NCBI GenBank assembly: GCA_051362555.1
Contig: CM120640.1
Location: 52,244,788 to 52,308,787, forward strand
Origin: Lingula anatina
Lineage: Eukaryota > Animalia > Brachiopoda
Direction: 5' to 3'
Length of the DNA stretch: 64,000 nt
Of the stretch, positions 205-54,721 are shown piece after piece. Each line of letters opens with the position of its first letter. Position 1 is the first letter of the stretch. Below the pieces are notes generated by a model that was given only the letters and a program-made list of their open reading frames with translations, had not been told where the DNA came from and ran no database searches. Both the position numbers and the translations under genes were made by a program.

Positions 205-206
205 CG

Positions 207-309: not shown

Positions 310-359
310 GTCTATCAGTGCGTCGGGCCACGTCTGGACTAGGATGGAAGACCGCCTGG
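310..359 (+). pseudogene. Degenerate partial 5S copy inside the spacer of every unit
   Basis: 321-359 CGTCGGGCCACGTCTGGACTAGGATGGAAGACCGCCTGG matches 5S nt 60-98 at 32/39 without gaps. It is preceded by GTCTA, which resembles the 5S 5' end. Confidence 0.8.
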
Positions 360-18300: not shown

Positions 18301-21300
18301 CTTTCACTTACCACTTTTTTTTCTTTAAGTTTTCAATTTTTTCCAAATCACAGTTGCGCCGTTGTCTTCGTCTATCAGTGCGTCGGGCCACGTCTGGACT
18401 AGGATGGAAGACCGCCTGGCCACCTTTACTTGTCCTTTTTAGCGTGGCATCAAACAGATGTGTCGATTCCGTTTCATTTCCTTTCGGTCGATCAAAAACA
18501 GTGCTAGCGCGGACAGTCATCGTCTACGACCATACCACGTTGAAAGCACCGGTTCTCGTCCGATCACCGAAGTTAAGCAACGTCGGGCCAGGTTAGTACT
18601 TGGATGGGTGACCGCCTGGGAATACCTGGTGCCGTAGACACGTTTTTGACATTTTATTCGTAGCCGATTTCAGTTTCTTTCACTTACCACTTTTTTTTCT
18701 TTAAGTTTTCAATTTTTTCCAAATCACAGTTGCGCCGTTGTCTTCGTCTATCAGTGCGTCGGGCCACGTCTGGACTAGGATGGAAGACCGCCTGGCCACC
18801 TTTACTTGTCCTTTTTAGCGTGGCATCAAACAGATGTGTCGATTCCGTTTCATTTCCTTTCCGTCGATCAAAAACAGTGCTAGCGCGGACGGTCATCGTC
18901 TACGACCATACCACGTTGAAAGCACCGGTTCTCCTCCGATCACCGAAGTTAAGCAACGTCGGGCCAGGTTAGTACTTGGATGGGTGACCGCCTGGGAATA
19001 CCTGGTGCCGTAGACACGTTTTTGACATTTTATTCGTAGCCGATTTCAGTTTCTTTCACTTACCACTTTTTTTTCTTTAAGTTTTCAATTTTTTCCAAAT
19101 CACAGTTGCGCCGTTGTCTTCGTCTATCAGTGCGTCGGGCCACGTCTGGACTAGGATGGAAGACCGCCTGGCCACCTTTACTTGTCCTTTTTAGCGTGGC
19201 ATCAAACAGATGTGTCGATTCCGTTTCATTTCCTTTCCGTCGATCAAAAACAGTGCTAGCGCGGACGGTCATCGTCTACGACCATACCACGTTGAAAGCA
19301 CCGGTTCTCGTCCGATCACCGAAGTTAAGCAACGTCGGGCCAGGTTAGTACTTGGATGGGTGACCGCCTGGGAATACCTGGTGCCGTAGACACGTTTTTG
19401 ACATTTTATTCGTAGCCGATTTCAGTTTCTTTCACTTACCACTTTTTTTTCTTTAAGTTTTCAATTTTTTCCAAATCACAGTTGCGCCGTTGTCTTCGTC
19501 TATCAGTGCGTCGGGCCACGTCTGGACTAGGATGGAAGACCGCCTGGCCACCTTTACTTGTCCTTTTTAGCGTGGCATCAAACAGATGTGTCGATTCCGT
19601 TTCATTTCCTTTCCGTCGATCAAAAACAGTGCTAGCGCGGACGGTCATCGTCTACGACCATACCACGTTGAAAGCACCGGTTCTCGTCCGATCACCGAAG
19701 TTAAGCAACGTCGGGCCAGGTTAGTACTTGGATGGGTGACCGCCTGGGAATACCTGGTGCCGTAGACACGTTTTTGACATTTTATTCGTAGCCGATTTCA
19801 GTTTCTTTCACTTACCACTTTTTTTTCTTTAAGTTTTCAATTTTTTCCAAATCACAGTTGCGCCGTTGTCTTCGTCTATCAGTGCGTCGGGCCACGTCTG
19901 GACTAGGATGGAAGACCGCCTGGCCACCTTTACTTGTCCTTTTTAGCGTGGCATCAAGCAGATGTGTCGATTCCGTTTCATTTCCTTTCCGTCGATCAAA
20001 AACAGTGCTAGCGCGGACAGTCATCGTCTACGACCATACCACGTTGAAAGCACCGGTTCTCGTCCGATCACCGAAGTTAAGCAACGTCGGGCCAGGTTAG
20101 TACTTGGATGGGTGACCGCCTGGGAATACCTGGTGCCGTAGACACGTTTTTGACATTTTATTCGTAGCCGATTTCAGTTTCTTTCACTTACCACTTTTTT
20201 TTCTTTAAGTTTTCAATTTTTTCCAAATCACAGTTGCGCCGTTGTCTTCGTCTATCAGTGCGTCGGGCCACGTCTGGACTAGGATGGAAGACCGCCTGGC
20301 CACCTTTACTTGTCCTTTTTAGCGTGGCATCAAACAGATGTGTCGATTCCGTTTCATTTCCTTTCGGTCGATCAAAAACAGTGCTAGCGCGGACAGTCAT
20401 CGTCTACGACCATACCACGTTGAAAGCACCGGTTCTCGTCCGATCACCGAAGTTAAGCAACGTCGGGCCAGGTTAGTACTTGGATGGGTGACCGCCTGGG
20501 AATACCTGGTGCCGTAGACACGTTTTTGACATTTTATTCGTAGCCGATTTCAGTTTCTTTCACTTACCACTTTTTTTTCTTTAAGTTTTCAATTTTTTCC
20601 AAATCACAGTTGCGCCGTTGTCTTCGTCTATCAGTGCGTCGGGCCACGTCTGGACTAGGATGGAAGACCGCCTGGCCACCTTTACTTGTCCTTTTTAGCG
20701 TGGCATCAAACAGATGTGTCGATTCCGTTTCATTTCCTTTCCGTCGATCAAAAACAGTGCTAGCGCGGACGGTCATCGTCTACGACCATACCACGTTGAA
20801 AGCACCGGTTCTCGTCCGATCACCAAAGTTAAGCAACGTCGGGCCAGGTTAGTACTTGGATGGGTGACCGCCTGGGAATACCTGGTGCCGTAGACACGTT
20901 TTTGACATTTTATTCGTAGCCGATTTCAGTTTCTTTCACTTACCACTTTTTTTTCTTTAAGTTTTCAATTTTTTCCAAATCACAGTTGCGCCGTTGTCTT
21001 CGTCTATCAGTGCGTCGGGCCACGTCTGGACTAGGATGGAAGACCGCCTGGCCACCTTTACTTGTCCTTTTTAGCGTGGCATCAAACAGATGTGTCGATT
21101 CCGTTTCATTTCCTTTCCGTCGATCAAAAACAGTGCTAGCGCGGACGGTCATCGTCTACGACCATACCACGTTGAAAGCACCGGTTCTCGTCCGATCACC
21201 GAAGTTAAGCAACGTCGGGCCAGGTTAGTACTTGGATGGGTGACCGCCTGGGAATACCTGGTGCCGTAGACACGTTTTTGACATTTTATTCGTAGCCGAT

Positions 21301-24300
21301 TTCAGTTTCTTTCACTTACCACTTTTTTTTCTTTAAGTTTTCAATTTTTTCCAAATCACAGTTGCGCCGTTGTCTTCGTCTATCAGTGCGTCGGGCCACG
21401 TCTGGACTAGGATGGAAGACCGCCTGGCCACCTTTACTTGTCCTTTTTAGCGTGGCATCAAACAGATGTGTCGATTCCGTTTCATTTCCTTTCCGTCGAT
21501 CAAAAACAGTGCTAGCGCGGACGGTCATCGTCTACGACCATACCACGTTGAAAGCACCGGTTCTCGTCCGATCACCGAAGTTAAGCAACGTCGGGCCAGG
21601 TTAGTACTTGGATGGGTGACCGCCTGGGAATACCTGGTGCCGTAGACACGTTTTTGACATTTTATTCGTAGCCGATTTCAGTTTCTTTCACTTACCACTT
21701 TTTTTTCTTTAAGTTTTCAATTTTTTCCAAATCACAGTTGCGCCGTTGTCTTCGTCTATCAGTGCGTCGGGCCACGTCTGGACTAGGATGGAAGACCGCC
21801 TGGCCACCTTTACTTGTCCTTTTTAGCGTGGCATCAAACAGATGTGTCGATTCCGTTTCATTTCCTTTCCGTCGATCAAAAACAGTGCTAGCGCGGACAG
21901 TCATCGTCTACGACCATACCACGTTGAAAGCACCGGTTCTCGTCCGATCACCGAAGTTAAGCAACGTCGGGCCAGGTTAGTACTTGGATGGGTGACCGCC
22001 TGGGAATACCTGGTGCCGTAGACACGTTTTTGACATTTTATTCGTAGCCGATTTCAGTTTCTTTCACTTACCACTTTTTTTTCTTTAAGTTTTCAATTTT
22101 TTCCAAATCACAGTTGCGCCGTTGTCTTCGTCTATCAGTGCGTCGGGCCACGTCTGGACTAGGATGGAAGACCGCCTGGCCACCTTTACTTGTCCTTTTT
22201 AGCGTGGCATCAAACAGATGTGTCGATTCCGTTTCATTTCCTTTCCGTCGATCAAAAACAGTGCTAGCGCGGACAGTCATCGTCTACGACCATACCACGT
22301 TGAAAGCACCGGTTCTCGTCCGATCACCGAAGTTAAGCAACGTCGGGCCAGGTTAGTACTTGGATGGGTGACCGCCTGGGAATACCTGGTGCCGTAGACA
22401 CGTTTTTGACATTTTATTCGTAGCCGATTTCAGTTTCTTTCACTTACCACTTTTTTTTCTTTAAGTTTTCAATTTTTTCCAAATCACAGTTGCGCCGTTG
22501 TCTTCGTCTATCAGTGCGTCGGGCCACGTCTGGACTAGGATGGAAGACCGCCTGGCCACCTTTACTTGTCCTTTTTAGCGTGGCATCAAACAGATGTGTC
22601 GATTCCGTTTCATTTCCTTTCCGTCGATCAAAAACAGTGCTAGCGCGGACAGTCATCGTCTACGACCATACCACGTTGAAAGCACCGGTTCTCGTCCGAT
22701 CACCGAAGTTAAGCAACGTCGGGCCAGGTTAGTACTTGGATGGGTGACCGCCTGGGAATACCTGGTGCCGTAGACACGTTTTTGACATTTTATTCGTAGC
22801 CGATTTCAGTTTCTTTCACTTACCACTTTTTTTTCTTTAAGTTTTCAATTTTTTCCAAATCACAGTTGCGCCGTTGTCTTCGTCTATCAGTGCGTCGGGC
22901 CACGTCTGGACTAGGATGGAAGACCGCCTGGCCACCTTTACTTGTCCTTTTTAGCGTGGCATCAAACAGATGTGTCGATTCCGTTTCATTTCCTTTCCGT
23001 CGATCAAAAACAGTGCTAGCGCGGACAGTCATCGTCTACGACCATACCACGTTGAAAGCACCGGTTCTCGTCCGATCACCGAAGTTAAGCAACGTCGGGC
23101 CAGGTTAGTACTTGGATGGGTGACCGCCTGGGAATACCTGGTGCCGTAGACACGTTTTTGACATTTTATTCGTAGCCGATTTCAGTTTCTTTCACTTACC
23201 ACTTTTTTTTCTTTAAGTTTTCAATTTTTTCCAAATCACAGTTGCGCCGTTGTCTTCGTCTATCAGTGCGTCGGGCCACGTCTGGACTAGGATGGAAGAC
23301 CGCCTGGCCACCTTTACTTGTCCTTTTTAGCGTGGCATCAAACAGATGTGTCGATTCCGTTTCATTTCCTTTCCGTCGATCAAAAACAGTGCTAGCGCGG
23401 ACAGTCATCGTCTACGACCATACCACGTTGAAAGCACCGGTTCTCGTCCGATCACCGAAGTTAAGCAACGTCGGGCCAGGTTAGTACTTGGATGGGTGAC
23501 CGCCTGGGAATACCTGGTGCCGTAGACACGTTTTTGACATTTTATTCGTAGCCGATTTCAGTTTCTTTCACTTACCACTTTTTTTTCTTTAAGTTTTCAA
23601 TTTTTTCCAAATCACAGTTGCGCCGTTGTCTTCGTCTATCAGTGCGTCGGGCCACGTCTGGACTAGGATGGAAGACCGCCTGGCCACCTTTACTTGTCCT
23701 TTTTAGCGTGGCATCAAACAGATGTGTCGATTCCGTTTCATTTCCTTTCCGTCGATCAAAAACAGTGCTAGCGCGGACAGTCATCGTCTACGACCATACC
23801 ACGTTGAAAGCACCGGTTCTCGTCCGATCACCGAAGTTAAGCAACGTCGGGCCAGGTTAGTACTTGGATGGGTGACCGCCTGGGAATACCTGGTGCCGTA
23901 GACACGTTTTTGACATTTTATTCGTAGCCGATTTCAGTTTCTTTCACTTACCACTTTTTTTTCTTTAAGTTTTCAATTTTTTCCAAATCACAGTTGCGCC
24001 GTTGTCTTCGTCTATCAGTGCGTCGGGCCACGTCTGGACTAGGATGGAAGACCGCCTGGCCACCTTTACTTGTCCTTTTTAGCGTGGCATCAAACAGATG
24101 TGTCGATTCCGTTTCATTTCCTTTCCGTCGATCAAAAACAGTGCTAGCGCGGACAGTCATCGTCTACGACCATACCACGTTGAAAGCACCGGTTCTCGTC
24201 CGATCACCGAAGTTAAGCAACGTCGGGCCAGGTTAGTACTTGGATGGGTGACCGCCTGGGAATACCTGGTGCCGTAGACACGTTTTTGACATTTTATTCG

Positions 24301-25669
24301 TAGCCGATTTCAGTTTCTTTCACTTACCACTTTTTTTTCTTTAAGTTTTCAATTTTTTCCAAATCACAGTTGCGCCGTTGTCTTCGTCTATCAGTGCGTC
24401 GGGCCACGTCTGGACTAGGATGGAAGACCGCCTGGCCACCTTTACTTGTCCTTTTTAGCGTGGCATCAAACAGATGTGTCGATTCCGTTTCATTTCCTTT
24501 CCGTCGATCAAAAACAGTGCTAGCGCGGACAGTCATCGTCTACGACCATACCACGTTGAAAGCACCGGTTCTCGTCCGATCACCGAAGTTAAGCAACGTC
24601 GGGCCAGGTTAGTACTTGGATGGGTGACCGCCTGGCAATACCTGGTGCCGTAGACACGTTTTTGACATTTTATTCGTAGCCGATTTCAGTTTCTTTCACT
24701 TACCACTTTTTTTTTCTTTAAGTTTTCAATTTTTTTCCAAATCACAGTTGCGCCGTTGTCTTCGTCTATCAGTGCGTCGGGCCACGTCTGGACTAGGATG
24801 GAAGACCGCCTGGCCACCTTTACTTGTCCTTTTTAGCGTGGCATCAAACAGATGTGTCGATTCCGTTTCATTTCCTTTCCGTCGATCAAAAACAGTGCTA
24901 GCGCGGACAGTCATCGTCTACGACCATACCACGTTGAAAGCACCGGTTCTCGTCCGATCACCGAAGTTAAGCAACGTCGGGCCAGGTTAGTACTTGGATG
25001 GGTGACCGCCTGGGAATACCTGGTGCCGTAGACACGTTTTTGACATTTTATTCGTAGCCGATTTCAGTTTCTTTCACTTACCACTTTTTTTTCTTTAAGT
25101 TTTCAATTTTTTTCCAAATCACAGTTGCGCCGTTGTCTTCGTCTATCAGTGCGTCGGGCCACGTCTGGACTAGGATGGAAGACCGCCTGGCCACCTTTAC
25201 TTGTCCTTTTTAGCGTGGCATCAAACAGATGTGTCGATTCCGTTTCATTTCCTTTCCGTCGATCAAAAACAGTGCTAGCGCGGACAGTCATCGTCTACGA
25301 CCATACCACGTTGAAAGCACCGGTTCTCGTCCGATCACCGAAGTTAAGCAACGTCGGGCCAGGTTAGTACTTGGATGGGTGACCGCCTGGGAATACCTGG
25401 TGCCGTAGACACGTTTTTGACATTTTATTCGTAGCCGATTTCAGTTTCTTTCACTTACCACTTTTTTTTCTTTAAGTTTTCAATTTTTTTCCAAATCACA
25501 GTTGCGCCGTTGTCTTCGTCTATCAGTGCGTCGGGCCACGTCTGGACTAGGATGGAAGACCGCCTGGCCACCTTTACTTGTCCTTTTTAGCGTGGCATCA
25601 AACAGATGTGTCGATTCCGTTTCATTTCCTTTCCGTCGATCAAAAACAGTGCTAGCGCGGACAGTCATC

Positions 25670-25771
25670 GTCTACGACCATACCACGTTGAAAGCACCGG
25701 TTCTCGTCCGATCACCGAAGTTAAGCAACGTCGGGCCAGGTTAGTACTTGGATGGGTGACCGCCTGGGAAT
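25670..25771 (+). rRNA. 5S rRNA gene interrupted after nt 102 by transposon 1 (3' remainder resumes at 33376-33392)
   Basis: 5S sequence is perfect to ...CCGCCTGGGAAT, then switches to unrelated GGCCCATGA. ACCTGGTGCCGTAGACA and the normal spacer resume at 33376. Confidence 0.97.
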
Positions 25772-26269
25772 GGCCCATGACCCCCCTGGGTAGTAATCAT
25801 AGTTCCTGGGAATCACGATGGTGGCGCTGAAGGGATAAACCCTTTGATCGTACAAGACGAGCCATGCTGGTTTTGTCAAAATTTATAAGCAGAATATCAT
25901 AATATCCTTCTTTTTGATGTTTACTCATTGTAACAATAAAAGGCATTTTTCATGATTATATAAAATTATTTTTCTTTCTTTTTCGACAGTTTTTAGAGTT
26001 TCCTCTTTAGGTATTTTATATAACACACTCTTCTTCGATTTTAATTTGAAATGAAAATTTTAAAAAGAGAGTAAAATTAAATTGTACTTCTTTGTTTCTT
26101 ACTGCGGTAATTTCATTTATTTCCTGTTTAATTAAATGACTCAAGTATGACAACTGAAATGTCTTCTTCAACACATCTTTATTATGGAAAAAATGAACAA
26201 AAAGTTACTGAAACAACATGAGTATTGAAAATGCACAAATATGAACAACAAGCATGTGCAACATTACTG

Positions 26270-27010
26270 CATTGGACAGAACATATTTGGTTTCTTTGGT
26301 ACCAGTTGCATAGAAAAATCACTGAATATACATTTTGCACAACTAATACAACTGAAAATATTTAAATGACAGTATGTAATATGCATTTCCCACAATCTGC
26401 TCAACATTCTACATGGAAATAGAAAATAAAAACAGTCAAAAAAACTGACCGACTGTGATTTTCTCAATGATAATGCAAAGAAAATCACATTTTACAAAAA
26501 TATATGTTTGATCCAAGTCTGCTGACTGGAATATAAGAATAATACACAGTTTCTTTGGCCTCTGTTGCATAGAAAACAGTACAAACCACTGCATACAAAA
26601 TGTTTTTCACACAATCATTTCACCTTTGGTAAAACAAAGAAAAAAATCTTGTGGGAATTGATTGCTTGTAATACAACTTGTAATACAAAATACTGACAAT
26701 GTAAAGAGGTTCATGTTTCATAAAATACATGGTTTGAGGAAAATCTACCTACAGAAATATAAAAAATAATACATATATACAGTTTCTTTGGCCTCTGATG
26801 CATGGAATTAAATACAAACTGCTGCATACAAAATGCTTTTCACACAATCTCTTGAATGCAACTAGTCATACAAAATACTGATTTCAATGTAAAGAAATTC
26901 ATTTTCCTTACATACATGGTTTGAGCACTCTACTGACTGAAATATAAAAAATAATACATATTAACAGTTTCTTTGGCACCTTGCATACAAAAATACAAAT
27001 CACTGCGAGT
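26270..27010. repeat. Degenerate ~190-260-bp tandem repeats in the 3' non-coding part of element A
   Basis: The motif acagtttctttggcctctg.tgcat...gcatacaaaatg recurs near 26547, 26779 and 26964, with a weaker copy near 26290. Confidence 0.7.
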
Positions 27011-27134
27011 GAAGTCCAGTTAAAAAAAAAAAAGAAAAGTCATTAGCAGTATTTGGAGATTTCACAGACTCATGGCATGCATTGGGCACAAAAAAGTCTT
27101 AGTTCTATCTTCATGTAACATTATAATTTGGGCA

Positions 27135-30100
27135 CTAGAGCTGTGCCAATCTTTGGTCTACAAAAGACTTAAAATCCTCATAATCTTTAAAAACTTCCTT
27201 TTCAAATCCTGCTGTCGTTGACATTTTTGTTGTCGGACAAAAAGTAAAAATTTTTTGTTTGCTTTTGCTTGTTTTTTCCTTTGATGGTGTGTATCTCCTC
27301 CTTTTTCCACCACATTTGGGTACTTTACACAGTGCACATGGTTTCGATGATTTGTTTGGCATGGTAATTTTTGCTGGCAGTGGTGGTAGTGGTGCCTTGA
27401 TTACGGGAGGACCTCCAGGCTGACAAATCACAGACGGGCCCTTTGGCTGAGAGGGGAGCACTATAAGAACAGGGGCATTTACAGGTTTTGGCTTAATGTC
27501 TTCCTTCTTAACTTTGCTTGATGCAGAAGCAACATCACCCTCAGTCTGCGGAGAAATGTCATTAAAATCTAACTTCCTCTTTTGCCCAGGCCTGATGCCT
27601 TTGATGAATGGTACTACAGGGTACTGCACCTGTGGCCGTCTAGGTGGTAAGAGCACCGATGGCAAGGTGTCAGCCTCTGGAATTGCTGCTTCAGATAACA
27701 CTCGCTGATGGGTCTTGACCTTCGGCAAGGAAGTGGCGACATAGTTTGCTTTCTTCTCCTCTTTGGTCAGAAATGCACTGATGGATTTAGCATTTATATT
27801 CGGTAGAGGCAAGTTCAGACTGCACAGCATGGGGTCGTCCCTCACTCGATCTACTATGCGTTTGTAGTGTGCCTTGATGAGTGAAGACAATCTGGACGGA
27901 GAACTGGTGTAACACGTTGGTGGCTTGTTTTTCAGGATTTTTATGAGCAAGTACAAAAGCCTGGACTCCTCTGTGATTTGTGCCGCTTGTGCGTATCTCA
28001 TCCAGCCAAATTTTGTTTTTTGAGCTGCACTGGACTGTGGAGAATCTGGACCAAGGCATCGACCAAAGAGGGTGTAACCCCACTTAGATTCGTATTTCTT
28101 GACAAAATTGGTTGTCGACTTATCATGATCCTGTAGGTTTGAAGCAGCGGTTATGATCTTGTTTCTAAGTGTCGGTGGCACAAGGTGCTTCCCATCTTCA
28201 GCAGCCAATTCCACTAGCTGCAAGGCCAGGTGTTCCACCTCTTCATAACCAGGCAGGTGTAAATGGCTGGGACCCATGAGCACATCTTCCAGCACTGGGT
28301 TTGACAGCTCTGTGACTTGCTCTGAGGTGGTGAAAATAGAGTATTTGACGTTTACTTCATCCAAAGGATCATTGGATTGCTCCTCCTCATCTTCTACGAT
28401 GCCCTCATCTTCCTCATCATCTGTCTGAGCTCCTTCCTCATCACCATCCTCCCTTGACTGCTCTTCCTCAACTGTAAAGAAAAAATACAAGATATACTAA
28501 GACAGATTAAGACAATAAATTACAAACTAAAGACAAGAAATTTGTTCTGTAAAAAAGTGAAAAAAAAAAAAAAGAATATTACAGTACAAAGATTTTCTTT
28601 TTTAAAGTTCATTGCTTATTATGATTTACATTGAACAATGAAAATTAATTTGCTGCAACCATTAACAATTCATTCTATAGACTAATTAAATCATTACAAT
28701 TCATGTGAAAATCTTACCCTTCTCCACATAGTATGATGCAGACTTGAAGTCAGTGGACTGAGCATACGCATACTCGATACCAAGCAACTCTTCTTCTTCC
28801 TCATTATTGTAGACCTCTGGGAATGGCATTGGTGCAGTGAAGTTAGGTTCAAAGAGGTGTTCCCTGCCAAACAAAACCTCTGACTGTTGGTTTAAGAGCT
28901 GCACTTGCCTGGGATCAGTGCACGATGACTTCCGCCCCTGACCACCTGCGACACGCAAGGACTCCATCCTGTGGTTCCACTGGGCAGCAAAACTGATCAG
29001 GTACACCTGGTGAAAAAAATTTTTAAAAATTGATTCAAGGATCAACAATTTCGTGATATTCGGTGAACTTGATTTTATAATTATGGATTCTTAATATTTA
29101 TCAGAAAAAAAAACCTTTAAAATACAGGTAAGTATTCACTGACAATTACAAAAAAATCAATCAATCAATCAATAATTTAAAAAATAAATATATTTTTTAC
29201 CTGAAATGGCATGATGCCACACCTTTTGGAGGGGATAGCATTCACAAGGTGGGAATGTAGACCTTCAAGGGCATTACTTCCTCTACGACAACGGTACTTC
29301 TGCACATCTACACCATTGATTGACACCGTCTTAGTGGTTACATACAGCGGTATGCCAGGAGGATCCTAGAATATACAAATTGTGATAATAAAGAATAAGT
29401 TAAATGGAATTTGTTTTCCCCTTCTATTGGGTAATGAACGCATTCTGCAAAAGGAAACTATAAAGTTGTAAAAAGACTAGATAAAGTAAGACGTACCTGC
29501 AAACAGTTAATGTGCTGACTAGATCTTGCCCAGTGGATATCCACGGCTTCATGAGACTTGAAAAGGGGTATGCCATCTACGTCGAGTCCAGCTGGTCCTT
29601 TAAACTCGTCTATGATGGCTTCTACTGCACACACTGTTGCCTGCAAGTGGAATAACATTTTTATATAATTTTTTTGTTCAGCAAATAAGTTTTAATTTTC
29701 ATGAAAGGTATGCTTATTTTGAAGAAAAATGTTATGTAAATTATTGGTTTGTATGTCATGAAAAAGGCTGAAGTGAAACATACCTCTACACCACGTGTCA
29801 CTCGCCGTACATAAGACTTGAACTGGTGAGGCTTGACAAAGGCAATCATCTCAGTGTCAGAGTATTTTGAGTACATCTGCTCATTGCCTGCCCGCACTGC
29901 CTTGACCAAATGTAGCAGGTCAGCCTTGTTGAATGCCAATACTGCTCCTGCAAGGGCGCTCATGAACACACCATACTTCGCATGACTCTGCTTTATCACG
30001 ACACTGTCCCATCTGTGGAGCCAGTGTCGGATATCCAGTCTGACAACCATGCCCTCCTCAACCCAGTCTGAGAACAATGTCTCATAAAAGGATTCTCCAC

Positions 30101-32669
30101 CATCCCTAATATTCAAATAAGACAAAATATATAAATAAATAAAACAAATCATTCTCATTAAAAAAAACTTACCATAGAATAATTTTTCTAAATGGATTAA
30201 AACCACTTAAAAATTAATGGGATAAAGGACATTTTTTCTAAATAAATGGTCTTCCATTCCTATCATATTAATGATATTTGCATTGAAATAAACACGAACA
30301 ATGATGCTTAACTAGTAACATACCTGCAACAATTATTGTCTGTGTACAGAACTCGTGGGGCTGGAGCATCAGCACGCTTAAAACGCTCAATTAGTCCTCG
30401 AGCCATCCTCCTGTAACACTCCTCGGACTCGGAGGCTACAACAACTGTGGTGAGGAACTGGCCCCATTCATTTAATATGCTGGTCACATACTGCAGTGAT
30501 CCACGTCCATCACCATACACTTTCTTGAGTATCTAGGAGGTTAAAAACAAGAGACATGTTAAGTAAATGAGTATAAATTTCACTGAAATAAATTTTCTGG
30601 AATAAAAAAAAGGAAACTTTTTCTCTTAAAACCACACTAACCTGTTTAGTGCCATCAATACAAAGGATTTCTCCTGTGGTGCTGAGTATGGAGGCCCTGT
30701 ATTCTGGAATTTTTTCCATTTCCATCACCAAGTGGGCACGTCGCAGGACACGAGATGAAGGAAGTGGAGTCTGAGCCATTGGTGGTATGTAGCTCCCGGC
30801 TTTCTTAGTGTACGACAGGATGCTGCTTCTGTCCATATGACCTTGATACAGCAGAGTCTGGTACATCCCTCTTCTCTCCATGTACCACTGGTCATGTTGG
30901 CGCTGTACCAGTCTGTGCACCTTGGTCATTGACACAGCATTCAGCCTGTCAGACAAAATCACAGCTATGTCCTTATCTATAGCCCTTTTTCCACAGATGA
31001 CAGCTGGAAAGAGACTGCGGACTGCCGGTGACAATTTCATCATAATCCGAGGGCTGTAACTGTGAAAAGAATACTGGGTTTCCTCATTTTCTCCCCTCTG
31101 CTGACGTGCATTTTTGCATGGGTAGCAAACCAGCCTTTCCGTCAAAAGGGTATAAAAACTCCGCATTCCACACACCTGCCTGGCAGTTGACCCAAAGCCA
31201 TGCTTGGACAAGAAACTTCCAGGTGGAGCAGGACAGTCCTTATTTGGGCATGGTATCTTGGCCTCCATGACCCCTACTGGTCTCCAGAATATCACAGGCG
31301 ATGTGAAGAAGGCATACATTGAGGGCAGTGATGCCTTAATAGAAATTGGCATTGGTGGTGGGTAAAAGTTGATCTTTTTCTTAAGAACCCTCTTATACAC
31401 AACTTCCCCACTGGCACTTCTGTATGGTATTGGTGCAGTAAAAAGTCCATACTCATCATTTTCCTTGAGCCACTTGATGTTAGGGTCTGGGCTTCCCTCC
31501 CACGACCTCTGCCACCCTTCCAATGCAGGGGCCTCTGGATCAGGGGTGAACTCCGCAGTGATCTCCAGCTCCTTTACAGAGGTCAGGTGGGTAGATACCT
31601 GGCTCTGCTGTAATGCTTCCTCTAAAAGTAACAAATATATAACATCGAGTCCCTGTCTAATGGGATATGTGCTGGATATGGGATACCTGGTGTATTATGC
31701 ATTACAGTCAGGGTATAATAAAGTCAAACTGTAAAGATAATGTTACAATTTCAAGTTGCATTCTTACATTATTTAACTCTGTGTGTTATGTGAAGACAGC
31801 CTTATACATCTGCAAAGGTTAATCATTTTACCTGCTTGTGTCAACAGAATGGAATCCTCAACATATCCAGGATCTTCCTCCATCTCTTTTGCCAACATCA
31901 GTGATCTTTCTGCTCCCTCAATATCTTTAGCTTTCTGTAATTAAATTTACTGTGTGCTAAGTATAGGCACTAACAACATGAATAATCTGAGATTAAAACA
32001 ATAAATAAAGACATCATTTGTAAGGAAAAGACTTTTATAGCAGCATTAGTCATAAATGGGAACAGGGGTATATTTACATTGAAATAAGTGGAAAAAAGCA
32101 TAAAAAACATATGATACCTGTAACTTTCTCTCCAGGTGAATGTTCACAGCAGGAAATTCTTTCACCAAGTCCAGCAGCTGCTGCTTCTGCCATTTGATCT
32201 GCATATTGGACTCTCCCTTCAGACAGTATTCAGCCAACAGCCAGACCACCCATCCAACATCATTTTCAAGGAGCCACTTGTAAGACTTGCCCTGGAATTT
32301 CCCAAATGTCATGACTAGCATAAGCCGCCACTGGTCATTGCCTAGCTGGCGGGCTTTTGCTTCTGCACTGGCTGGGTCTAACCACAACTGGTCTAAAGCA
32401 GACTCTGGGCGGAATGCTTTAGCTTCTGGGGTGGATTGTAGCATAGCTTCTCCTGGCTTGTACATACGAATGGAGGGGTAGAGGTGCTGCCGTGCGTGGC
32501 TCTCGAGGTGCCCCTTCTGATTAAATGTCTTGGAACAGTGTGGACAACTGTAAGCTTTAGCCCTCTCCTCATTGTGTATTAGCTGCATGTGTCTATTTAG
32601 ATTAGCTTTGAATCTAAAATACTTAAGGCATACACCGCACTGGAACTGTGTTTTACTGCTAGGTTCCAT
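27135..32669 (-). CDS. Dada-type DDE transposase with two N-terminal C2H2 zinc fingers, ~1366 aa, 9 coding exons: 32669-32118, 31934-31832, 31621-30642, 30532-30324, 30105-29784, 29640-29497, 29365-29201, 29006-28718, 28471-27135
   Basis: All introns are GT..AG and the exons total 4101 nt in one open frame. Motifs in order: CGVC..HMQLIH and CPHC..HARQH zinc fingers; FGKFQGKSYKWLLENDVG; ILCIDGTKQ (D1); NEWGQ; VLYTDNNCC (D2); VRLDIRHW (DxxH); CLQDPPG..YRCRRGSNALEGLH (E); C-terminal CALCKVPKC..FC. These recall Dada transposases (related to MuDR/hAT/Kolobok DDE enzymes). Confidence 0.88.
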
Positions 32670-33240
32670 ATTTACTGAAAACATAAAAAAAAGTCTACTA
32701 AATACCCAAAATACTGCTGTAATGTTAATTAGTTGCATATATATGTATATATACACATATATAAGCACAAGTCATCGGGAAAATATTTTAATAAAGTTTT
32801 TAAACAGAACACTGTGGCATACTACCCCCCCCCCCCCCCCACCCCGGCGATTAAAGATAAAGGTATTAACAGGTCACTATGAGCTTTATTTGAATGAATT
32901 AAAGTTTAAATACCAAACAGTACATGTTGCGAAATGTATACACTGGCCAAGTGCCGGTACATGCAAAACGCCATACTAATTCAGTTTTGCGGATCAATAC
33001 TAAGTAAACACAAAAAGTACAGCTGCCGGTATTTTCAAAACGGCAACAAATATGTGGTCATATCTTACCTTGAATAAATCCTTACTGCACCCGGAATTGA
33101 AAATATGCACTATGGCCTAAATGGCATCAGCATCGAATGAGAGAGATTCGACAGAGATTTCGAAGCGGAGAAACATGAGGCACCGCCATCTTGCCTTCTT
33201 CTTCACGATCTTTGTTAATTAGAGATTGTTTTACTCTAAG

Positions 33241-33327
33241 CCAATCGTTGAGCCCTGTTGAGGACGAGGACTGCTCAACAGACCAATCAGACGAGGGGCA
33301 GGCTGCTCAACAAAGCTCAATGATTGG
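33241..33327. promoter_or_regulatory. Subterminal inverted repeat with CCAAT boxes upstream of the transposase gene (element A)
   Basis: CCAATCGTTGAGCCCTGTTGAG (33241-33262) versus CTCAACAAAGCTCAATGATTGG (33306-33327). An extra CTCAACA/CCAATC lies between them. A likely non-coding first exon ends at the splice donor at 33068. Confidence 0.6.
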
Positions 33328-33649
33328 TTGGTCGAGCCTAAGTGTTACTACTTGGCTGGGTGAGCGCCTGGGAATACCTGGTGCCGTAGACACGTTTTTG
33401 ACATTTTATTCGTAGCCGATTTCAGTTTCTTTCACTTACCACTTTTTTTTCTTTAAGTTTTCAATTTTTTCCAAATCACAGTTGCGCCGTTGTCTTCGTC
33501 TATCAGTGCGTCGGGCCACGTCTGGACTAGGATGGAAGACCGCCTGGCCACCTTTACTTGTCCTTTTTAGCGTGGCATCAAACAGATGTGTCGATTCCGT
33601 TTCATTTCCTTTCCGTCGATCAAAAACAGTGCTAGCGCGGACAGTCATC

Positions 33650-33768
33650 GTCTACGACCATACCACGTTGAAAGCACCGGTTCTCGTCCGATCACCGAAG
33701 TTAAGCAACGTCGGGCCAGGTTAGTACTTGGATGGGTGACCGCCTGGGAATACCTGGTGCCGTAGACA
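33650..33768 (+). rRNA. 5S rRNA gene (intact, between the two transposons)
   Basis: Identical to the array consensus. Confidence 0.97.
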
Positions 33769-34025
33769 CGTTTTTGACATTTTATTCGTAGCCGATTTCA
33801 GTTTCTTTCACTTACCACTTTTTTTTCTTTAAGTTTTCAGTTTTTTCCAAATCACAGTTGCGCCGTTGTCTTCGTCTATCAGTGCGTCGGGCCACGTCTG
33901 GACTAGGATGGAAGACCGCCTGGCCACCTTTACTTGTCCTTTTTAGCGTGGCATCAAACAGATGTGTCGATTCCGTTTCATTTCCTTTCCGTCGATCAAA
34001 AACAGTGCTAGCGCGGACAGTCATC

Positions 34026-34144
34026 GTCTACGACCATACCACGTTGAAAGCACCGGTTCTCGTCCGATCACCGAAGTTAAGCAACGTCGGGCCAGTTTAG
34101 TACTTGGATGGGTGACCGCCTGGGAATACCTGGTGCCGTAGACA
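34026..34144 (+). rRNA. 5S rRNA gene (single G>T variant in GCCAGGTTAG)
   Basis: Array consensus except gccagtttag. Confidence 0.95.
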
Positions 34145-34402: not shown

Positions 34403-34504
34403 GTCTACGACCATACCACGTTGAAAGCACCGGTTCTCGTCCGATCACCGAAGTTAAGCAACGTCGGGCCAGGTTAGTACTTGGATGGGTGACCGCCTGG
34501 GAAT
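34403..34504 (+). rRNA. 5S rRNA gene interrupted after nt 102 by transposon 2
   Basis: Perfect 5S to ...CCGCCTGGGAAT, then GGGCAATGACCC. A degenerate 3' remainder (ACCTGGCACCGTAGACATGTTTTT) resumes at 41727. Confidence 0.95.
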
Positions 34505-34949
34505 GGGCAATGACCCCTCCAAGTACTTATCCTGGTTTCTGATCACCCCCCTTGGGGCGCTGCTGAACGTAATTACACCCCAAGACGAGACAAGTATTTA
34601 AGAACTGTCATGTAATCACTTTCCGTTTCATTTTGTAAATGAAAGGCTTGATTTTTACTAATATTCTAAGTACTGAATGATGTATAATAATATATTTAAA
34701 GAATTCTCACCAACAACATAAGAAACACATGTAATATTGAGAAAGTTTATTAGAAAAAAAAAGTATTCCATTTCAAACTTTATTAAAAATATATTTGTAA
34801 GTCAGTTTAACCGCATGATTTTGCAGTTGCTGAATTCTCACATATCATCAAAATACCCATTTTAAACTTAAAAACAGTTTACATTTAATACAAAAATACT
34901 ACTTGTAGAAAATTATAGTTAATAATTTTCATTTACCACAACTTTTTCT

Positions 34950-35400
34950 AAGAAATTGAGCAATGAACATGTAACTTTGTATGAAAACTTTGCCAATCAG
35001 CAGCATGAAATTGAGCCATTGTTGCATTTCTACATTCTACAATCAAAACAAACATCTGTGAGTTAGAACAGTGTACATCTTACACAAAAACACTGTCTGT
35101 AGAAAGCACCTGTAAAACATGCACTTACTACTCTATTTCTCTATTAAAACGCTAGTCTAATAAAATTGATCAACGAACATGTAACATTACTTCATATGAA
35201 AACTTTGGCACTCATATCAGCATGAAATTGAGCAATTGTTGTATTTCTACATTTTACCAAGAAAGTAAAATCTACTGACTAAAAAACTACATCTTACACA
35301 AAAAATCTGCTCGTAGAAAATGCAAAACAGATAAACATGCGCTTGCAACTTTTATTCAATGAAAACACTATGTTAATGAAACTGAGCAATGAACGTGGGA
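34950..35400. repeat. Degenerate ~210-bp tandem repeats in the 3' non-coding part of element B
   Basis: gagcaatgaacatgtaac...atgaaaactttg...cagcatgaaattgagc recurs near 34958, 35168 and partly at 35384. Confidence 0.65.
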
Positions 35401-37695
35401 ATTCTTTTAATTAATACCCTCCTCATTTGAAAGATTAATAAGGAATGTGTCAACAACAGTTTTAAAATGATCATAATCATTATACACAACACCTTCAAAG
35501 CCTTCTGTCATTGATTTTCTTGTGGTGGGACAATATGTAAAGATCTTCTGCTTTCTCCTTTGAAGGCATGTACCTTTTCTTCATTCCACCACAGTTTGGA
35601 ATTTGGCACAAGCCACATGGCTTTGATGACTTCTTTGGAAGAATGGGTCTTGAGGGAATTGGTAGAGGTGGGGGCTGGAAGACCAAACCACCTGAGGAAG
35701 TCGCAGGCTGGAGAAGAGCTGCAGGACCCTGTGGCTGAGAGGGGACAACTAGGAGAACTGGAACATGTGCAGATTCTTGCGATTTAATAAGAACTGGTTT
35801 TGTCTTGCCGGTCAAGGAGCTGGTTGACTTGGAGCAGGTTGTAGCTGGCTGACTTTCATCAAATTGTAGCTTCCTCTTTTGACCTAATCTTATTCCCTTT
35901 GTGAGTGGTATCACAGGATACTGCACCTCTGGACGGTTGGGTGGTGAGAGGGATGTTGGAAGTTCAGCTGCCTTGGGCATTTTGCTTTCTTCAAGGACTC
36001 TCTGATGAGGCTTAACCTTTGGTATAGCAGTTGCCACTAAATTTGCCCTTTTCTCTTCTTTAACAAGAAATGATGATATTGATTTTGCATTGATATTTGG
36101 CAAAGGCAAGTTCAAGGTACACAGTACAGGATCGTCTCTTACTCTGTCCACAAGGCGTTTATAGTCTGCCTTCACACGGGTGACTAGTTTGGATGGAGAA
36201 GTGACATAACAGGTTGGTGGTCTGTTCTTTAGAAGCTTAATAAGTAGATATAACAATCTTGACTCCTCAGTGATGGCAGCAGCCTGTGCGTAGCGCATCC
36301 ATCCAAATTTGGTTTTTTGTGCAGCACTGTTTTCAGGAGAGTCTGGACTAAGGCAACGGCCAAACAAGGTGTAACCCCACTTGGACTCGTACATCTTCAC
36401 AAAGTTCTTGGAGGTCTTGTCATGGTCATGAAGTTTGGAAGCAGCCATGCGTATCTGTTCTCTGAGAGGCACGGGCACTAAATGCCTGTCATCAGTGGTC
36501 AACTTTGTCAGTAGATTGGCCAAATTCTCCACTTCCTCATAGCCTGGCAGGTGTAGGTGCCTAGGACCCATCAGCACATCCTCTAGTGCAGGACTGGAGA
36601 TTTCTCCTACTTGTTCAGATGTTGTGAAAACAGAGTACTTGGTATTGGCTTCATCCACTGGATCCTCCATGGAGTCTTCTTCAATCCCCCATCTTCTTGG
36701 TCAGATTGAGTCTCCTGCTCCTCCTCCTCTTCACCATCCTCCTTTGACTGCTCTTCATCCACTGTAAAACACGAAATACAATGACCATGAATCATTAAAT
36801 TGAAAGGGAAAACAAGTGCAATATTTTGCGTTCTAAACCTGTTAAGATATTCAGAAATCATCAAAATTACTTTGTTCCTCATAAAATTATGCATTTATTT
36901 TGATTTTCTTTTCTCTATCAAATAATAAAAGTTATATTTGAAATCTGAATACACATCTTACCCTTTTGAATATAATATTCTCTGGATGTAAAATCAGTAG
37001 ACTGGCAAAAAGCATACTCTACTCCTAAGAGTTCTCTTTCTTCAGGATCCTGATACTCTACTGGACATGGCAGTGGAGCAGTAAAATTAGGCTCAAATAG
37101 GTGACGCCTGCCAAACAAAACCTCAGACTGCTGATTCAGAAGCTGAATCTGTCTTGGATCTGAGCAGGATGACAAACGTCCCCGACCTCCAGCAACACGC
37201 AGAGACTCCATTCTGTTGTTCCATTGGACAGCAAAGGAGATGAGGTACACCTGCAGAGATATCTTTAAATTATTCACTATTTCATGTAATAAATTAGGCA
37301 ACCCTTTTGTATCAAATTTCTTAAAAAATTCTACCATGTTTGAGTTCACATCCACTCCTCAATAAATAAAAATTAAATCAAAATGTTTGTTGGTTGTTAA
37401 AAAGTAAATTGCAGTGTACAGGAATGATTGATGCATACACAGTGCTTACCTGGAATGGCATGATACCACATTTTTGAGAAGGAACAGCTCTAAATAGGTG
37501 GGCATGCAGACCTTCCAGAGAGTTGCTTCCCCTATGACACCTGTACTTTTGCAGGGCTACACCATTGATGGTGACCGTCTTAGTGGCTACGTATAATGCT
37601 ATACCAGGTGGGTCCTGAAATATATAAATTTTAATAATTAAGTGCAAAGATTACTGAATCTGATGAATCCAATATGGTGACTTGTTAGTTTGAGT

Positions 37696-37697
<2 letters not shown>

Positions 37698-37749
<52 letters not shown>
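37698..37749 (+). repeat. Poly-T tract (~50 nt) in an intron of element B
   Basis: Uninterrupted T run. Confidence 0.9.
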
Positions 37750-37750
<1 letters not shown>

Positions 37751-39966
37751 TTGAGAGGACTACCTGGAAAAATCCAAATGAAAGCAATATGTATCTAGAC
37801 AAAGAAAACAAACAACATATACCTGCATGCAGTTTATGTGTTGACTTGAACTAGCCACAGTAGTGAGAAATTGACCCCATTCATTAAGCACACTGGTAAC
37901 ATACTGCATGGTACCTTGTCCATCATAATTTCTTAAATGCACTGAAATTCATTTTCCAAAATAACATAACTGCTACCTTAATACACTAAAACATTTAAAC
38001 ATGGAATGCTATTTGAGACATGTTTTTTATTTAATGCTCACAAATTCAAAGTAACTAAAATAATACAGGGGGTAATAAAAAAACATACAATGTTTATAGC
38101 CTAATGGTGTCCATACCTGTCTTGTGCCATCTATACAAAGGATTTCTCCAGTTACACTGAGGATGGATTCCCTGTAGACTGGCATCTTCTCCATTTCACT
38201 CAGCATGTGTGCACGTCGTAACACCCGAGCAGATGGCACTGGAGTAGGGGGGAGTGGTGGAGTGTAGCTACCTGGAGTTTTTAAGAATGAAACTATGCTA
38301 GGCTGGGATGATGCACTGGCACTGTCAGGGGGACTGCTCGAGGTATGGACATATGGACATCATACAACACAGCCTGGTACAAACCCCTTCTTTCAGTATA
38401 CCACTCAGCATGTCCCTGCTGAATGAGACGTTGCACTTTACTCATGGAAATGGAATTTATTCTGTCATTCAGCAGTGTCACGATGCTCCTGTCTACTGCT
38501 CTTTTGCCACACAAAATGGCAGTGAAAATGCTTCGGACAGCTGTTGGCAGATTCATTAAGATCTGTGGACTGCTGGCATTCCACGAATACTGTATGTTTC
38601 TTCCTTCACAACTGACACCATCTTGTCCCTGGCTGACAGTTGGACGAGATTTGAGGCAATGAGGGCAAACAAGGCGTTCTGTCAACATAGTGTAATGGTA
38701 CCTCATTCCACAGACAAGACGTGCGGTGCTGCTGTAGCCATGTTTGATTAAATAATGCCCAGGAGGAGCAGAACACTTCAAATTTGGACATTTAATTTTC
38801 AATCCCATCACACCTACTGGCCGCCAAACAAAGGCTGGGGTTGAAAAAAAGCTAGCTTGTTGGGAATCGAGTCCTTTACTGCAGTTGGTAGTGGTGGAGG
38901 ATGGAAATCCATCTTGGGCTTAAAAGTTTTTCTAATAACCATTATACCTTTGGCAGTACTGTGCTCCTTTCCCATGTAAAAAAGTCCGCACTCATCACTG
39001 TCTCTCAACCACTTGATGTTGGCTGCCATGATGCCCTCCGCCTGATCACTCCAAGACTTCTGCCAGCCTTCTAAAACAACAGAACCTGATGCTTCATCAG
39101 AAGGGACTATTGAAGGTGAAGTGATGTCCTGAGATGCATCAGATTATGTGATATTTCCCCAGGTAGTCAACTGAGAGGAGACAGCCACCTCCAACTTAAC
39201 TAACACATCCTCTGAAAAGTAAAAACATTATCTTAGCTTAATCAGTGACAACACAAAGCCTATGTGATAATGTGGTTAATTTGGTTTTAAAAAATGTTAA
39301 AAGAAAAATTGCATTTTAACAATACACAATTCTTTGTGTGCAGCAGTGGTCTACTATATCTGCAACAGTACATTATTTTACCTACTTGTGTCAACAGTAT
39401 GGAATCCTCGACATATCCAGGGTCTTGTTCCATCTCTCTCTTCAACCTTAGCTCTTTGTCAGCTTCCTTTTTTTCTCTCTTGATTTCTGCAATTATAGGT
39501 TTAAAAGTGTGATAACTATAACCTGTAATTATTTGTATATGAACAATCTAAAATAAAACAACCTGAAATATACATATCACATGGCATGTCATTTATTGTT
39601 AAGATTATGAGTGGGCATATTCAAATTGAATTCACTTATAAAAAAAGAGAAGTCTTACCTGCAACTATCTCTCTAAATGCACATAGACTGCTGGGAATAG
39701 CTTTACCAGTTCCTGTTTTTGCCGCTTTATTTTTTCGTTGTTTTCTCCTTTCAGATAGAACTCTGACATCATCCACACACACATACCAGCCAACATCGTT
39801 CTCCAAAGCCACTTGTAGTTTTGACCACTATACAAAATAAGATGAAAAATAGAGTTAAAAATGTTCAGAAGACTTTACATAAAAAGAAACAAACATTTAA
39901 TAATAATCATTACTTAACATACATAACACAGAATTTATAATATTTAAAAGATCATGTTTTAGTTAA

Positions 39967-40600
39967 AGCAATAATAACTCTTCCCTTGAGATTCAAAATT
40001 CCGCAAGAAATACATTGTAAACAACACATGGAAATATATTTTATTGCATTTTACCACTAAAATGGTCGTAATTGTAGTAAAACTAAAATCTGTGCTTGTC
40101 AATAGGGCTTTCGATGCCTTTCTTCCCGGTTGTCAAGGCATCCGGATTCTCGCGTTCATTCGAGACCAAAATAACATGGCGCCAAACTACTGATGCAATC
40201 TGCAGACGTAAGTTGTGAGTTTTTGTACAGTACGTCGGATAATGAAAAGCCCAGAATTGCACACATCGTAGATATAAATGCATTTTGAGCAATAAGACAA
40301 ATGTATCTTATGAATCTTATATTATTGTTATATAGTGTTGTTGTTGTCTGCTTTTCCCGCTGTTTTAAGTAGGTCACCAGAAAATATCGCTCGATATCTC
40401 GTGATTATGCATTGTCAGAGAGGGTTCCGTCAGTTAAAATCTCTTAAGAGATTTTAACAAAAAACCAAACTTTTAGGGAAAAAACCCTAGACTAACTTTG
40501 AATGCAGGAATGGGGTCGTTGACCATTGGTAAGTAAGGGAAAATTGCCGTTTACTTCAGGAAAATCCAATTTTTGACCAAAACAAAGAGTTATTATGACT
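39967..40600. mobile_element. Non-autonomous TIR element with TTAA TSD (Kolobok-like MITE) nested in an intron of element B
   Basis: TTAA|AGCAATAATAACTCTT ... AAGAGTTATTATGACT|TTAA, with AG..CT termini. The internal sequence resembles 56870-56950 and 59650-59749. Confidence 0.7.
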
Positions 40601-41580: not shown

Positions 41581-41680
41581 AGCCAATCATTGAGTGCTGT
41601 TGAGGAAACCTCTCCTCAACAGAGCACTGCGATTGGACTTTTGAGCAGAAGGTTTCCTCAACAGGGCTCAATGATTGGCT
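41581..41680. promoter_or_regulatory. Subterminal 31-bp inverted repeat with CCAAT boxes (element B), homologous to that of element A
   Basis: AGCCAATCATTGAGTGCTGTTGAGGAAACCT (41581-41611) versus AGGTTTCCTCAACAGGGCTCAATGATTGGCT (41650-41680), 2 mismatches. Confidence 0.7.
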
Positions 41681-41726
41681 GGTTGAGGGCTTCAATAAGT
41701 ACTTTCCTGCGTGACTGCCTGGCAAT

Positions 41727-54719: not shown

Positions 54720-54721
54720 TA

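What the first reader, a model, noticed from the sequence alone, without database searches (positions are those of the whole stretch)
25742..33375. All four transposon ends mimic the 5S target half-site: a possible mechanism of target specificity
Seen, each read toward the TSD. 5S target nt 72-96: TTAGTAC-TTGGAT-GGGTGA-CCGCCT|GGGAAT. A right end (33345-33369): TTACTAC-TTGGCT-GGGTGA-GCGCCT. A left end reverse-complemented (25796-25772): TTACTAC-CCAGGG-GGGTCA-TGGGCC. B left end rc (34529-34505): TAAGTAC-TTGGAG-GGGTCA-TTGCCC. B right end (41696-41720): TAAGTAC-TTTCCT-GCGTGA-CTGCCT. Spacing is identical (7-6-6-6) in all five. The heptamer is family-specific and co-varies between the two ends of each family (TTACTAC in A, TAAGTAC in B). 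This symmetry also fixes the TSD as 6 bp. Inference: the transposase binds one bipartite motif at its own cryptic TIRs and at the target, which would explain both site and orientation specificity. Alternatively, since the motif overlaps 5S box C, host TFIIIA could be co-opted as an end/target factor.
Basis: partly seen in the sequence, partly recalled or inferred. Interest (0 to 1): 0.88.

Follow-up and report, generated by a model that had tools for sequence, protein, structure and literature searches.

The report
Dada-5S transposon ends mimic their target
Two jumping genes of a known kind (Dada-5S) sit at the same spot in 5S ribosomal RNA genes, and all four of their ends resemble the 25 bases next to that spot, likely because the transposase treats the target as if it were one of its own ends; this likeness was already published for sister families, though not in the text for 5S.

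Summary
All four ends match 5S nt 72-96 without gaps (22, 14, 19, 19 of 25; background mean 6.2). The elements are Dada-5S DNA transposons. A is intact (1366-aa DDE transposase, identical to a Lingula anatina protein, one intron seen spliced in two RNA runs); B is broken. [quoted passage not shown] Kojima 2022 described Dada-5S at this site, in fish only. This scan also noted it for Dada-U6 (e1-9941068).

Added here: the motif holds in 14 of 14 Dada-5S ends examined. The heptamer matches between ends in 5 of 5 two-ended families. The likeness stops at -25 (7 held ends tested), and the target resembles the right end. GGGTGA is not conserved at fish right ends, and TFIIIA co-option is unlikely. 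Predicted folds rank ISCth4 (IS256 family) first; it grips 25-26 bp of its end and prefers a 6-bp junction. Dada therefore likely inserts 6 bp beside a decoy end, like IS30 IR-targeting. No circle junction was seen. New member of a known kind.

The parts
1..25771 (+). 5S rDNA tandem array, 376-bp unit, 68.5 copies, 99% matches; last gene broken after nt 102
25741..25765 (+). Target half-site upstream of A (5S nt 72-96), the predicted decoy right end
25766..25771 (+). Left TSD of A, GGGAAT (5S nt 97-102)
25772..33369 (-). Element A, intact Dada-5S transposon, 7598 bp, transposase opposite to 5S
25772..25796 (-). A left end, 25-bp cryptic inverted repeat, 14 of 25 to target
27135..32669 (-). A transposase CDS, 9 predicted exons (32669-32118, 31934-31832, 31621-30642, 30532-30324, 30105-29784, 29640-29497, 29365-29201, 29006-28718, 28471-27135), 1366 aa: two C2H2 fingers, CCCC (343/348/384/387), D541, D610, DxxH 639-642, E804, C-terminal Cys cluster
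   Evidence: (identical to P0001); last intron spliced in 2 of 2 RNA runs
33241..33337 (.). Right-end-only inverted modules containing CCAAT (likely promoter or extra transposase sites)
   Evidence: also in B, L004 and the published fish records
33345..33369 (+). A right end, 22 of 25 to target
33370..33375 (+). Right TSD of A, GGGAAT, followed by the 3' part of the 5S gene
33650..34144 (+). Two whole 5S genes between A and B (33650-33768, 34026-34144)
34474..34504 (+). Target half-site and left TSD of B
   Evidence: 22-bp inverted repeat with B left end across the TSD
34505..41720 (-). Element B, defective Dada-5S of a second family, 7216 bp; frameshifts, and no match to A residues 587-765 (second Asp and DxxH)
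34505..34529 (-). B left end, 19 of 25 to target
41581..41687 (.). B right-end inverted CCAAT modules
41696..41720 (+). B right end, 19 of 25 to target
41721..41726 (+). Right TSD of B, GGCAAT, followed by an old, diverged 5S unit
   Evidence: no change listed in three other samples

Best explanation
A and B are Dada-5S DNA transposons whose two ends and upstream target half-site share one 25-bp degenerate motif, and the transposase likely binds the 5S half-site with the surfaces that it uses for its own right end, so the incoming left end would be joined a fixed 6 bp beyond this decoy end. Shown: the motif, its register, its sharp edge at -25, the match of the heptamer between the ends of a family, and the closer likeness of the target to right ends at -13, -9, -8 and -1. 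Predicted: the catalytic core folds most like ISCth4 TnpA of the IS256 family. Inferred: (1) binding in two parts, a sub-terminal block (about -25 to -15) and a tip block (about -12 to -1), as in ISCth4; (2) the target takes the place of the recipient end in an IS256/IS30-type end-next-to-end strand transfer, which would fix site and orientation together; (3) right end plus TSD rebuilds a target, which would allow the tandem insertions published for Dada-U1; (4) less certain, a circular right-end/6-bp/left-end intermediate would carry a donor spacer and explain the published TSD replacement in Dada-tA and Dada-tY.
For: Non-chance, register-specific match of all four ends. A scan whose pattern held only 5S box C, the TSD and two more bases returned 4 loci, all with the motif at the left end: 2 distinct left ends, 14 and 15 of 25; the right end in L004 and L002 has 17 of 25. 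Seven more ends from the published fish records carry it (read by eye). Over all 14 distinct ends, T-25, A-20, G-12 and G-10 are kept in 14 of 14, and C-19, T-18 and T-17 in 13 of 14. Left and right heptamers agree at 7, 7, 6, 6 and 7 of 7 in the five two-ended families; between the three held families they agree at 4-6 of 7. Position -9 follows the host target in 6 of 6 right ends and 2 of 8 left ends (the fish target base was checked only in L002-L004). Position -8 is C in 8 of 8 left ends and purine in 6 of 6 right ends (target G). Position -1 is C in 8 of 8 left ends and T, as in the target, in the 3 right ends where it is shown. Two AlphaFold models of homologues both rank ISCth4 first: Z 14.8, rmsd 3.9, 270 aligned, next Hermes 9.1; Z 11.5, rmsd 7.3, 323 aligned, next 9.4; Foldseek E 1.8e-4 and 5.8e-5. 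ISCth4 binds bp 14-25 and 1-12 of its end, and integrates junctions best with a 6-bp spacer (PMC7780238). IS30 IR-targeting yields only IRL-IRR junctions and sequence conversion (PMC9333248). Dada-U6 and Dada-U1 show the same design on unrelated targets, with tandem insertions separated by the TSD (PMC3706591). Dada-tA carries a foreign 6-mer at both sides or at the right side only.
Against: No binding, cutting or integration was tested. No right-end/left-end joint was listed in the 4 runs laid on A; contigs drop rare forms. The heptamer middle departs from an unchanged target (-24 matches in 2 of 14 ends, -23 and -21 in 6 of 14), and -13 matches in 2 of 14, so the target is at best a loose fit. 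A shared fold does not fix the pathway: eukaryotic MULEs are also IS256-related and excise by double-strand breaks with hairpins (PMC5499845, abstract). Both models are of homologues (P0009, P0061), not of A itself. The -9 tracking is one lineage contrast, since A and B are sisters (99/100). Held heptamers can also agree at 6 of 7 between families (B versus L004). ISCth4 itself integrates without sequence specificity, and Dada has C2H2 fingers and a long C-terminal region that could read the target separately. The doubled GGGAAT in L002 could be a cut-and-paste excision footprint.
Confidence: 0.6

Rival explanations
1. Ordinary cut-and-paste (MULE/hAT-like) with a separate target reader, such as the two C2H2 fingers or the C-terminal region. 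The ends resemble the target because end and target readers arose from one ancestral specificity, or because a right end that rebuilds the target favours tandem stacking.
For: Two C2H2 fingers in A and B. The heptamer middle drifts away from a constant target. MULEs cut and paste. The doubled TSD in L002 looks like an excision footprint.
Against: It does not explain why left ends, which cannot rebuild a target, keep the same register and -25 edge in 8 of 8 cases, nor the replaced TSDs of Dada-tA.
Confidence: 0.22
2. The likeness is passive: the right end is captured or gene-converted 5S flank, spread by recombination in the array, with no role in targeting.
For: Right ends match best (22, 19, 17 of 25) and follow the host base at -9. 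The array is homogenised at 99%. This may account for part of A's 22 of 25.
Against: Left ends lie inverted and on the other side of the TSD, yet match at 13-19 of 25. The heptamer follows the family, not the host. The edge is at -25 in all 7 held ends. No change was listed in A's left end in 2 other samples, in A's right end in X2, or in B's right end in 3 other samples (the tables are cut, and contigs hide rare forms).
Confidence: 0.1
3. Host TFIIIA binds box-C-like sequence at the ends and at the target and bridges them.
For: The motif overlaps box C (5S nt 80-97); A's right end meets 10 of 12 informative positions of the published box C consensus.
Against: The other six held ends meet only 5-8 of 12. 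Four of the best-kept positions (nt 72, 77, 78, 79) lie upstream of box C. A conserved host factor would not give family-specific heptamers. Dada-U6 and Dada-U1 show the same design on genes that TFIIIA does not bind (the last point from general knowledge).
Confidence: 0.05

Closest known systems
Dada-5S DNA transposons of ray-finned fish (Kojima 2022, PMC8869645; Dada-5S-A/B_CaAu, _ClH, _LaRo, _NoCe, _OrMe)
   Same: Same site (published target ATTCCCAGGCGGTC), same left-end GGGTCA block, same right-end CCAAT modules. A's core is 67-73% identical to a group of fish and invertebrate proteins that includes a Labeo rohita protein, and 48% identical in the C-terminal exon to the L004 element, whose termini equal those of Dada-5S_ClH.
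   Different: Host is a brachiopod by the source name of the identical protein; the paper surveyed vertebrates only. The heptamers are new (TTACTAC, TAAGTAC). The paper's text does not describe end-target likeness for 5S; its figures could not be seen.
Dada-U6 and Dada-U1 sub-terminal inverted repeats (Kojima and Jurka 2013, PMC3706591)
   Same: [quoted passage not shown]
   Different: There a 7-9 bp motif shared among families; here a degenerate 25-bp match with family-specific heptamers and a left/right asymmetry.
ISCth4 / IS256 family transposase (PMC7780238)
   Same: Best structural match of two predicted models; two-part grip on about 25 bp of the end; attack next to a recipient end; 6-bp junction preferred.
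   Different: Bacterial, 8-bp TSD, AT-rich non-specific targets, true TIRs, about 400 aa; no host-gene decoy. Works-like only; not a member.
IS30 and IS911 IR-targeted insertion (PMC9333248)
   Same: Insertion next to an end-like sequence with strict orientation, giving a left-right junction, with sequence conversion.
   Different: Different transposase families, 2-bp spacer for IS30; the target is a real IS end, not a conserved host gene.

Membership tests
Dada superfamily | DDE triad with DxxH after the second Asp | tested here: met
   D541, D610, D639-H642, E804 in A (spacing 69 and 194; Dada-U6_DR 68 and 176); kept in 71/80, 82/88, 90/90, 87/90 and 82/87 ungapped rows of alignment A2
Dada superfamily | N-terminal CCCC zinc motif | tested here: met
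   C343, C348, C384, C387 (spacing 5, 36, 3; published 5, 35, 3)
Dada superfamily | C-terminal CCHC zinc motif | tested here: inconclusive
   A has C1300, C1303, C1308 and C1333: three conserved Cys but Cys in place of His and other spacing. The same pattern stands in the L004 element with the termini of published Dada-5S_ClH, so it seems to be the 5S-lineage form. The 2013 protein alignment was not held as text.
Dada superfamily | Insertion at a fixed site in a multicopy small RNA gene with 6-7 bp TSD | tested here: met
   A and B both after 5S nt 102 with nt 97-102 repeated; 1 mismatch in B's right copy
Dada superfamily | No true TIR, short sub-terminal inverted repeats also found in the target | tested here: met
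   Left versus right end 15 and 17 of 25, heptamers 7 of 7
Dada superfamily | Length about 4.7-11 kb with an intron-containing transposase gene | tested here: met
   7598 and 7216 bp; 9 exons; one intron seen spliced
Dada-5S lineage | Target ATTCCCAGGCGGTC in 5S rRNA genes | tested here: met
   Reverse complement of window 5S nt 89-102
Dada-5S lineage | Clusters with published Dada-5S transposases against other Dada lineages | tested here: inconclusive
   The 14-row tree held no U1, U6 or tRNA outgroup with a known target and was midpoint-rooted; identity bands (about 70% versus 45% and 33%) are consistent
IS256-type copy-out/paste-in pathway (works like) | Transposase fold with HTH, RNase H core and helical insertion like ISCth4 | tested here: met
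   Rank 1 in both models of homologues
IS256-type copy-out/paste-in pathway (works like) | Circular intermediate with right end, spacer, left end | tested here: inconclusive
   No such joint listed in 2 DNA contig sets and 2 RNA runs; these cannot show rare DNA circles
IS256-type copy-out/paste-in pathway (works like) | Single-strand transfer to a figure-eight; donor site kept | not testable with these tools
   Needs biochemistry

The most novel reading that the evidence does not exclude
Dada is a eukaryotic copy-out/paste-in transposon of IS256 type that has turned end-next-to-end (IR-targeted) strand transfer into its only way of integrating. A conserved host gene serves as a permanent decoy right end. 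New targets are gained when a multicopy gene happens to resemble the end, and TSD replacement is the donor spacer carried on the circle.
Probability: 0.3. Interest if true: 0.8.

Novelty: new member of a known kind. Interest (0 to 1): 0.45.

Why it matters
How Dada finds its target has been open since 2013, and both founding papers name it as a route to site-specific gene delivery. The end-target likeness was known, but here it is resolved to base positions over 14 ends, given a polarity (target = right end) and tied to a solved structure with the same 25-bp footprint and 6-bp spacing. That makes the question directly testable with an intact, transcribed invertebrate copy. It also extends Dada-5S from fish to a brachiopod and to a further, non-fish-type 5S gene (L001).

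Tried and rejected
No whole genome is held for this window, so copy number and other copies could not be counted. A profile search of PDB sequences found nothing at E up to 1. No RNA holder was listed by the run index; raw RNA reads were laid instead. No circle joint was listed; the one 'goes back' joint is the contig of B's right end and the next 5S unit. Poly(A) and poly(C) loose ends at 27038-27040 and 32845 and the opposite-strand joints there look like homopolymer artefacts and were not used. Run X8 gave no cover on B's right end. The downstream target half matches the ends less (11, 7, 9, 12 of 25), so only the upstream half is mimicked. No end motif and no 5S remnant were found near the decayed Dada pieces beyond 42.1 kb. 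A paper search for TFIIIA base contacts found none, so box C was scored by a published consensus only. Dada-tA and Dada-tL termini were looked at (first 15 places of each term) but not scored against their targets. Searches for later work: 'Dada-5S' occurs in 1 paper; among the 25, 12 and 10 rows listed (titles and abstract starts only) none proposes a Dada mechanism. Repbase and subscription journals were not searchable.
Full report
Setting. The window opens with a 5S rDNA array of 376-bp units (68.5 copies, 99% matches). Two insertions interrupt 5S genes after nt 102, with nt 97-102 repeated: A at 25772-33369 and B at 34505-41720. B's right repeat is GGCAAT and is followed by an old, diverged unit at the array edge.

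Observation. The ends match 5S nt 72-96 at 22 (A right), 14 (A left), 19 (B left) and 19 (B right) of 25. Among 29,212 internal 25-mers the mean is 6.2 and the maximum 15. Shuffles of each end reach the observed value in 0 of 200,000 trials for three ends and at p about 0.0013 for A left. The match peaks only at shift 0 and falls to 2-6 of 15 in the 15 bases further in, in all 7 held ends. The 7-6-6-6 spacing is one ungapped block.

What the elements are. Nine predicted exons on the minus strand of A give an unbroken 1366-aa protein, identical to P0001, which its source names a Lingula anatina protein. It has two C2H2 fingers and DUF6729, a CCCC motif, and D541, D610, DxxH and E804, all conserved in homologues. 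These are the Dada hallmarks of Kojima and Jurka 2013 (PMC3706591; parts 1-3 of 4 of the text and supplementary figures S3 and S4 read; main figures not visible). The C-terminal motif has Cys where that paper gives His, as in the L004 element. B is a second family (64% identity in the last exon) with frameshifts and no match to residues 587-765. In two RNA runs, about 6% of each read, 85 and 65 reads lay on A; 4 and 4 of them join 28471 to 28718, the predicted last intron. Kojima 2022 (PMC8869645; whole text read, supplement searched by passages, figures not visible) describes Dada-5S in fish at exactly this site.

What is already in print. The 2022 text does not describe it for 5S; its figures may. 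The term Dada-5S occurs in that one paper of the library.

Tests on other copies. A metagenome scan for box C, the TSD and two further bases, blind to the rest of the element, gave 4 loci. All 4 have the motif at the left end. L002-L004 share one left end; L004 is a whole element, and its termini equal those of Dada-5S_ClH. L001 has a different, non-fish-type 5S gene and no transposase match in the 700 bases held. Seven further ends were read by eye from the published dataset: CaAu-A right, CaAu-B left, LaRo both, NoCe both, OrMe left. The partial ends (CaAu-A left, CaAu-B right, OrMe right) were left out, and ClH was counted once with L004. Hand counts over the 14 distinct ends: positions -25, -20, -12, -10 match the target in 14; -19, -18, -17 in 13; -22 in 12; -15 and -11 in 11; -16 and -14 in 8; -23 and -21 in 6; -24 and -13 in 2. 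Left and right heptamers agree at 7 (A), 7 (B), 6 (ClH/L004), 6 (LaRo) and 7 (NoCe) of 7. Between held families they agree at 4-6 of 7. The target is right-like: -1 is T in the target and the 3 right ends where it is shown, C in 8 of 8 left ends; -8 is purine in 6 of 6 right ends, C in 8 of 8 left ends; -13 T occurs only in the two window right ends; -9 follows the host (T here, A in L002-L004) in 6 of 6 right ends. The last point rests on one lineage contrast, because A and B are sisters, and the fish base was checked in one host type only. In other samples of the same organism no change was listed in A's left end (X2, X7), A's right end (X2) or B's right end (X2, X4, X7); the tables are cut and contigs hide rare variants.

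TSD length. The symmetry argument favours 6 bp. L002 adds a direct case: its right end is followed by GGGAAT GGGAAT, a 6-bp unit. It is a single locus, and the published records start one base later at the right end.

Mechanism. After insertion the target half-site and the left end face each other across 6 bp (a 22-bp inverted repeat in B), and the right end stands where the half-site stood. AlphaFold models of two homologues (P0009, 71% identical to A in the core, mean pLDDT 71; P0061, about 41%, pLDDT 92) both match ISCth4 TnpA of the IS256 family best among 48,161 representative chains (Z 14.8, rmsd 3.9, 270 aligned; Z 11.5, rmsd 7.3, 323 aligned), and in Foldseek. A distant link to IS256 was already noted in 2013. 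ISCth4 binds its end in two parts, bp 14-25 and 1-12, attacks DNA beside a loosely held recipient end, and integrates junctions best with a 6-bp spacer (PMC7780238, passages). IS30 inserts next to its own ends with strict orientation and with sequence conversion (PMC9333248, passages). I infer that Dada-5S uses the 5S half-site as a decoy right end (0.6). The stronger claim, that it does so from a circle (0.3), would explain why Dada-tA carries a foreign 6-mer in place of the target bases. Against it: no circle joint was listed, MULEs are IS256-related yet cut and paste (PMC5499845, abstract), and the doubled TSD of L002 could be an excision footprint.

Rivals. A separate target reader with cut-and-paste remains possible (0.22). 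Capture or conversion of flank may raise the right-end match but cannot make inverted left ends or family-specific heptamers (0.1). TFIIIA fits poorly: 6 of 7 held ends meet only 5-8 of 12 informative box C positions (consensus from PMC3369914, passages), and several of the best-kept bases lie upstream of box C (0.05).

Verdict. Real, non-chance, and a new member of a known kind: Dada-5S in a brachiopod, showing the 5S form of a published feature. Its value lies in the base-level map and the IS256-type hypothesis, which is untested. Interest 0.45.

Noticed in passing
window 47891-52064 (+): ORFs with GDSL/SGNH hydrolase, reverse transcriptase-RNase H and tyrosine recombinase domains, the layout of a DIRS/Ngaro-like retrotransposon (name recalled).
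   Followed up: no
window 44082-45825, 53537-55649, 60464-62445 (+): Decayed Dada pieces in the opposite orientation, up to 96% identical to B and 84% to A, outside the 5S array, with no end motif or 5S remnant found.
   Followed up: partly
window 42000-42110: The last 5S copy has 3 extra bases right at the Dada cut site and breaks off near nt 107; possibly an old excision or one-ended scar. Contigs of three other samples span it.
   Followed up: partly
window 5S array, 1 of 73 units scanned: One whole unit carries GGCAAT at nt 97-102, the same variant as B's right TSD.
   Followed up: no
window 26468-27006 and 34953-35397: A and B each hold a diverged tandem duplication of about 210-230 bases downstream of the stop codon.
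   Followed up: no
window 33241-33337, 41581-41687; L004 8250-8336: Right ends only carry repeated, inverted CCAAT-containing modules, also seen in the published fish records; likely the promoter or extra binding sites that tell the two ends apart.
   Followed up: partly
L002 6306-6317: Right end followed by a doubled 6-bp TSD; the element also lacks the catalytic middle.
   Followed up: partly
proteins P0004, P0020, P0016 (tree): Two amphioxus proteins nest among fish proteins (100/100 with an Eleginops protein), a hint of horizontal transfer; unrooted 14-row tree, not tested. Close homologues also occur in echinoderms and a priapulid, targets unknown.
   Followed up: no
published Dada-tL and Dada-U1 records: Dada-tL ends also show an imperfect sub-terminal inverted repeat, and several Dada-U1 left ends end in a GGTC...GCC block like that of Dada-5S, so part of the left-end motif may predate the 5S target.
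   Followed up: no
window 27097-27441 and 32634-33201: Contigs of run X7 skip these stretches: internally deleted copies of A in another sample.
   Followed up: no
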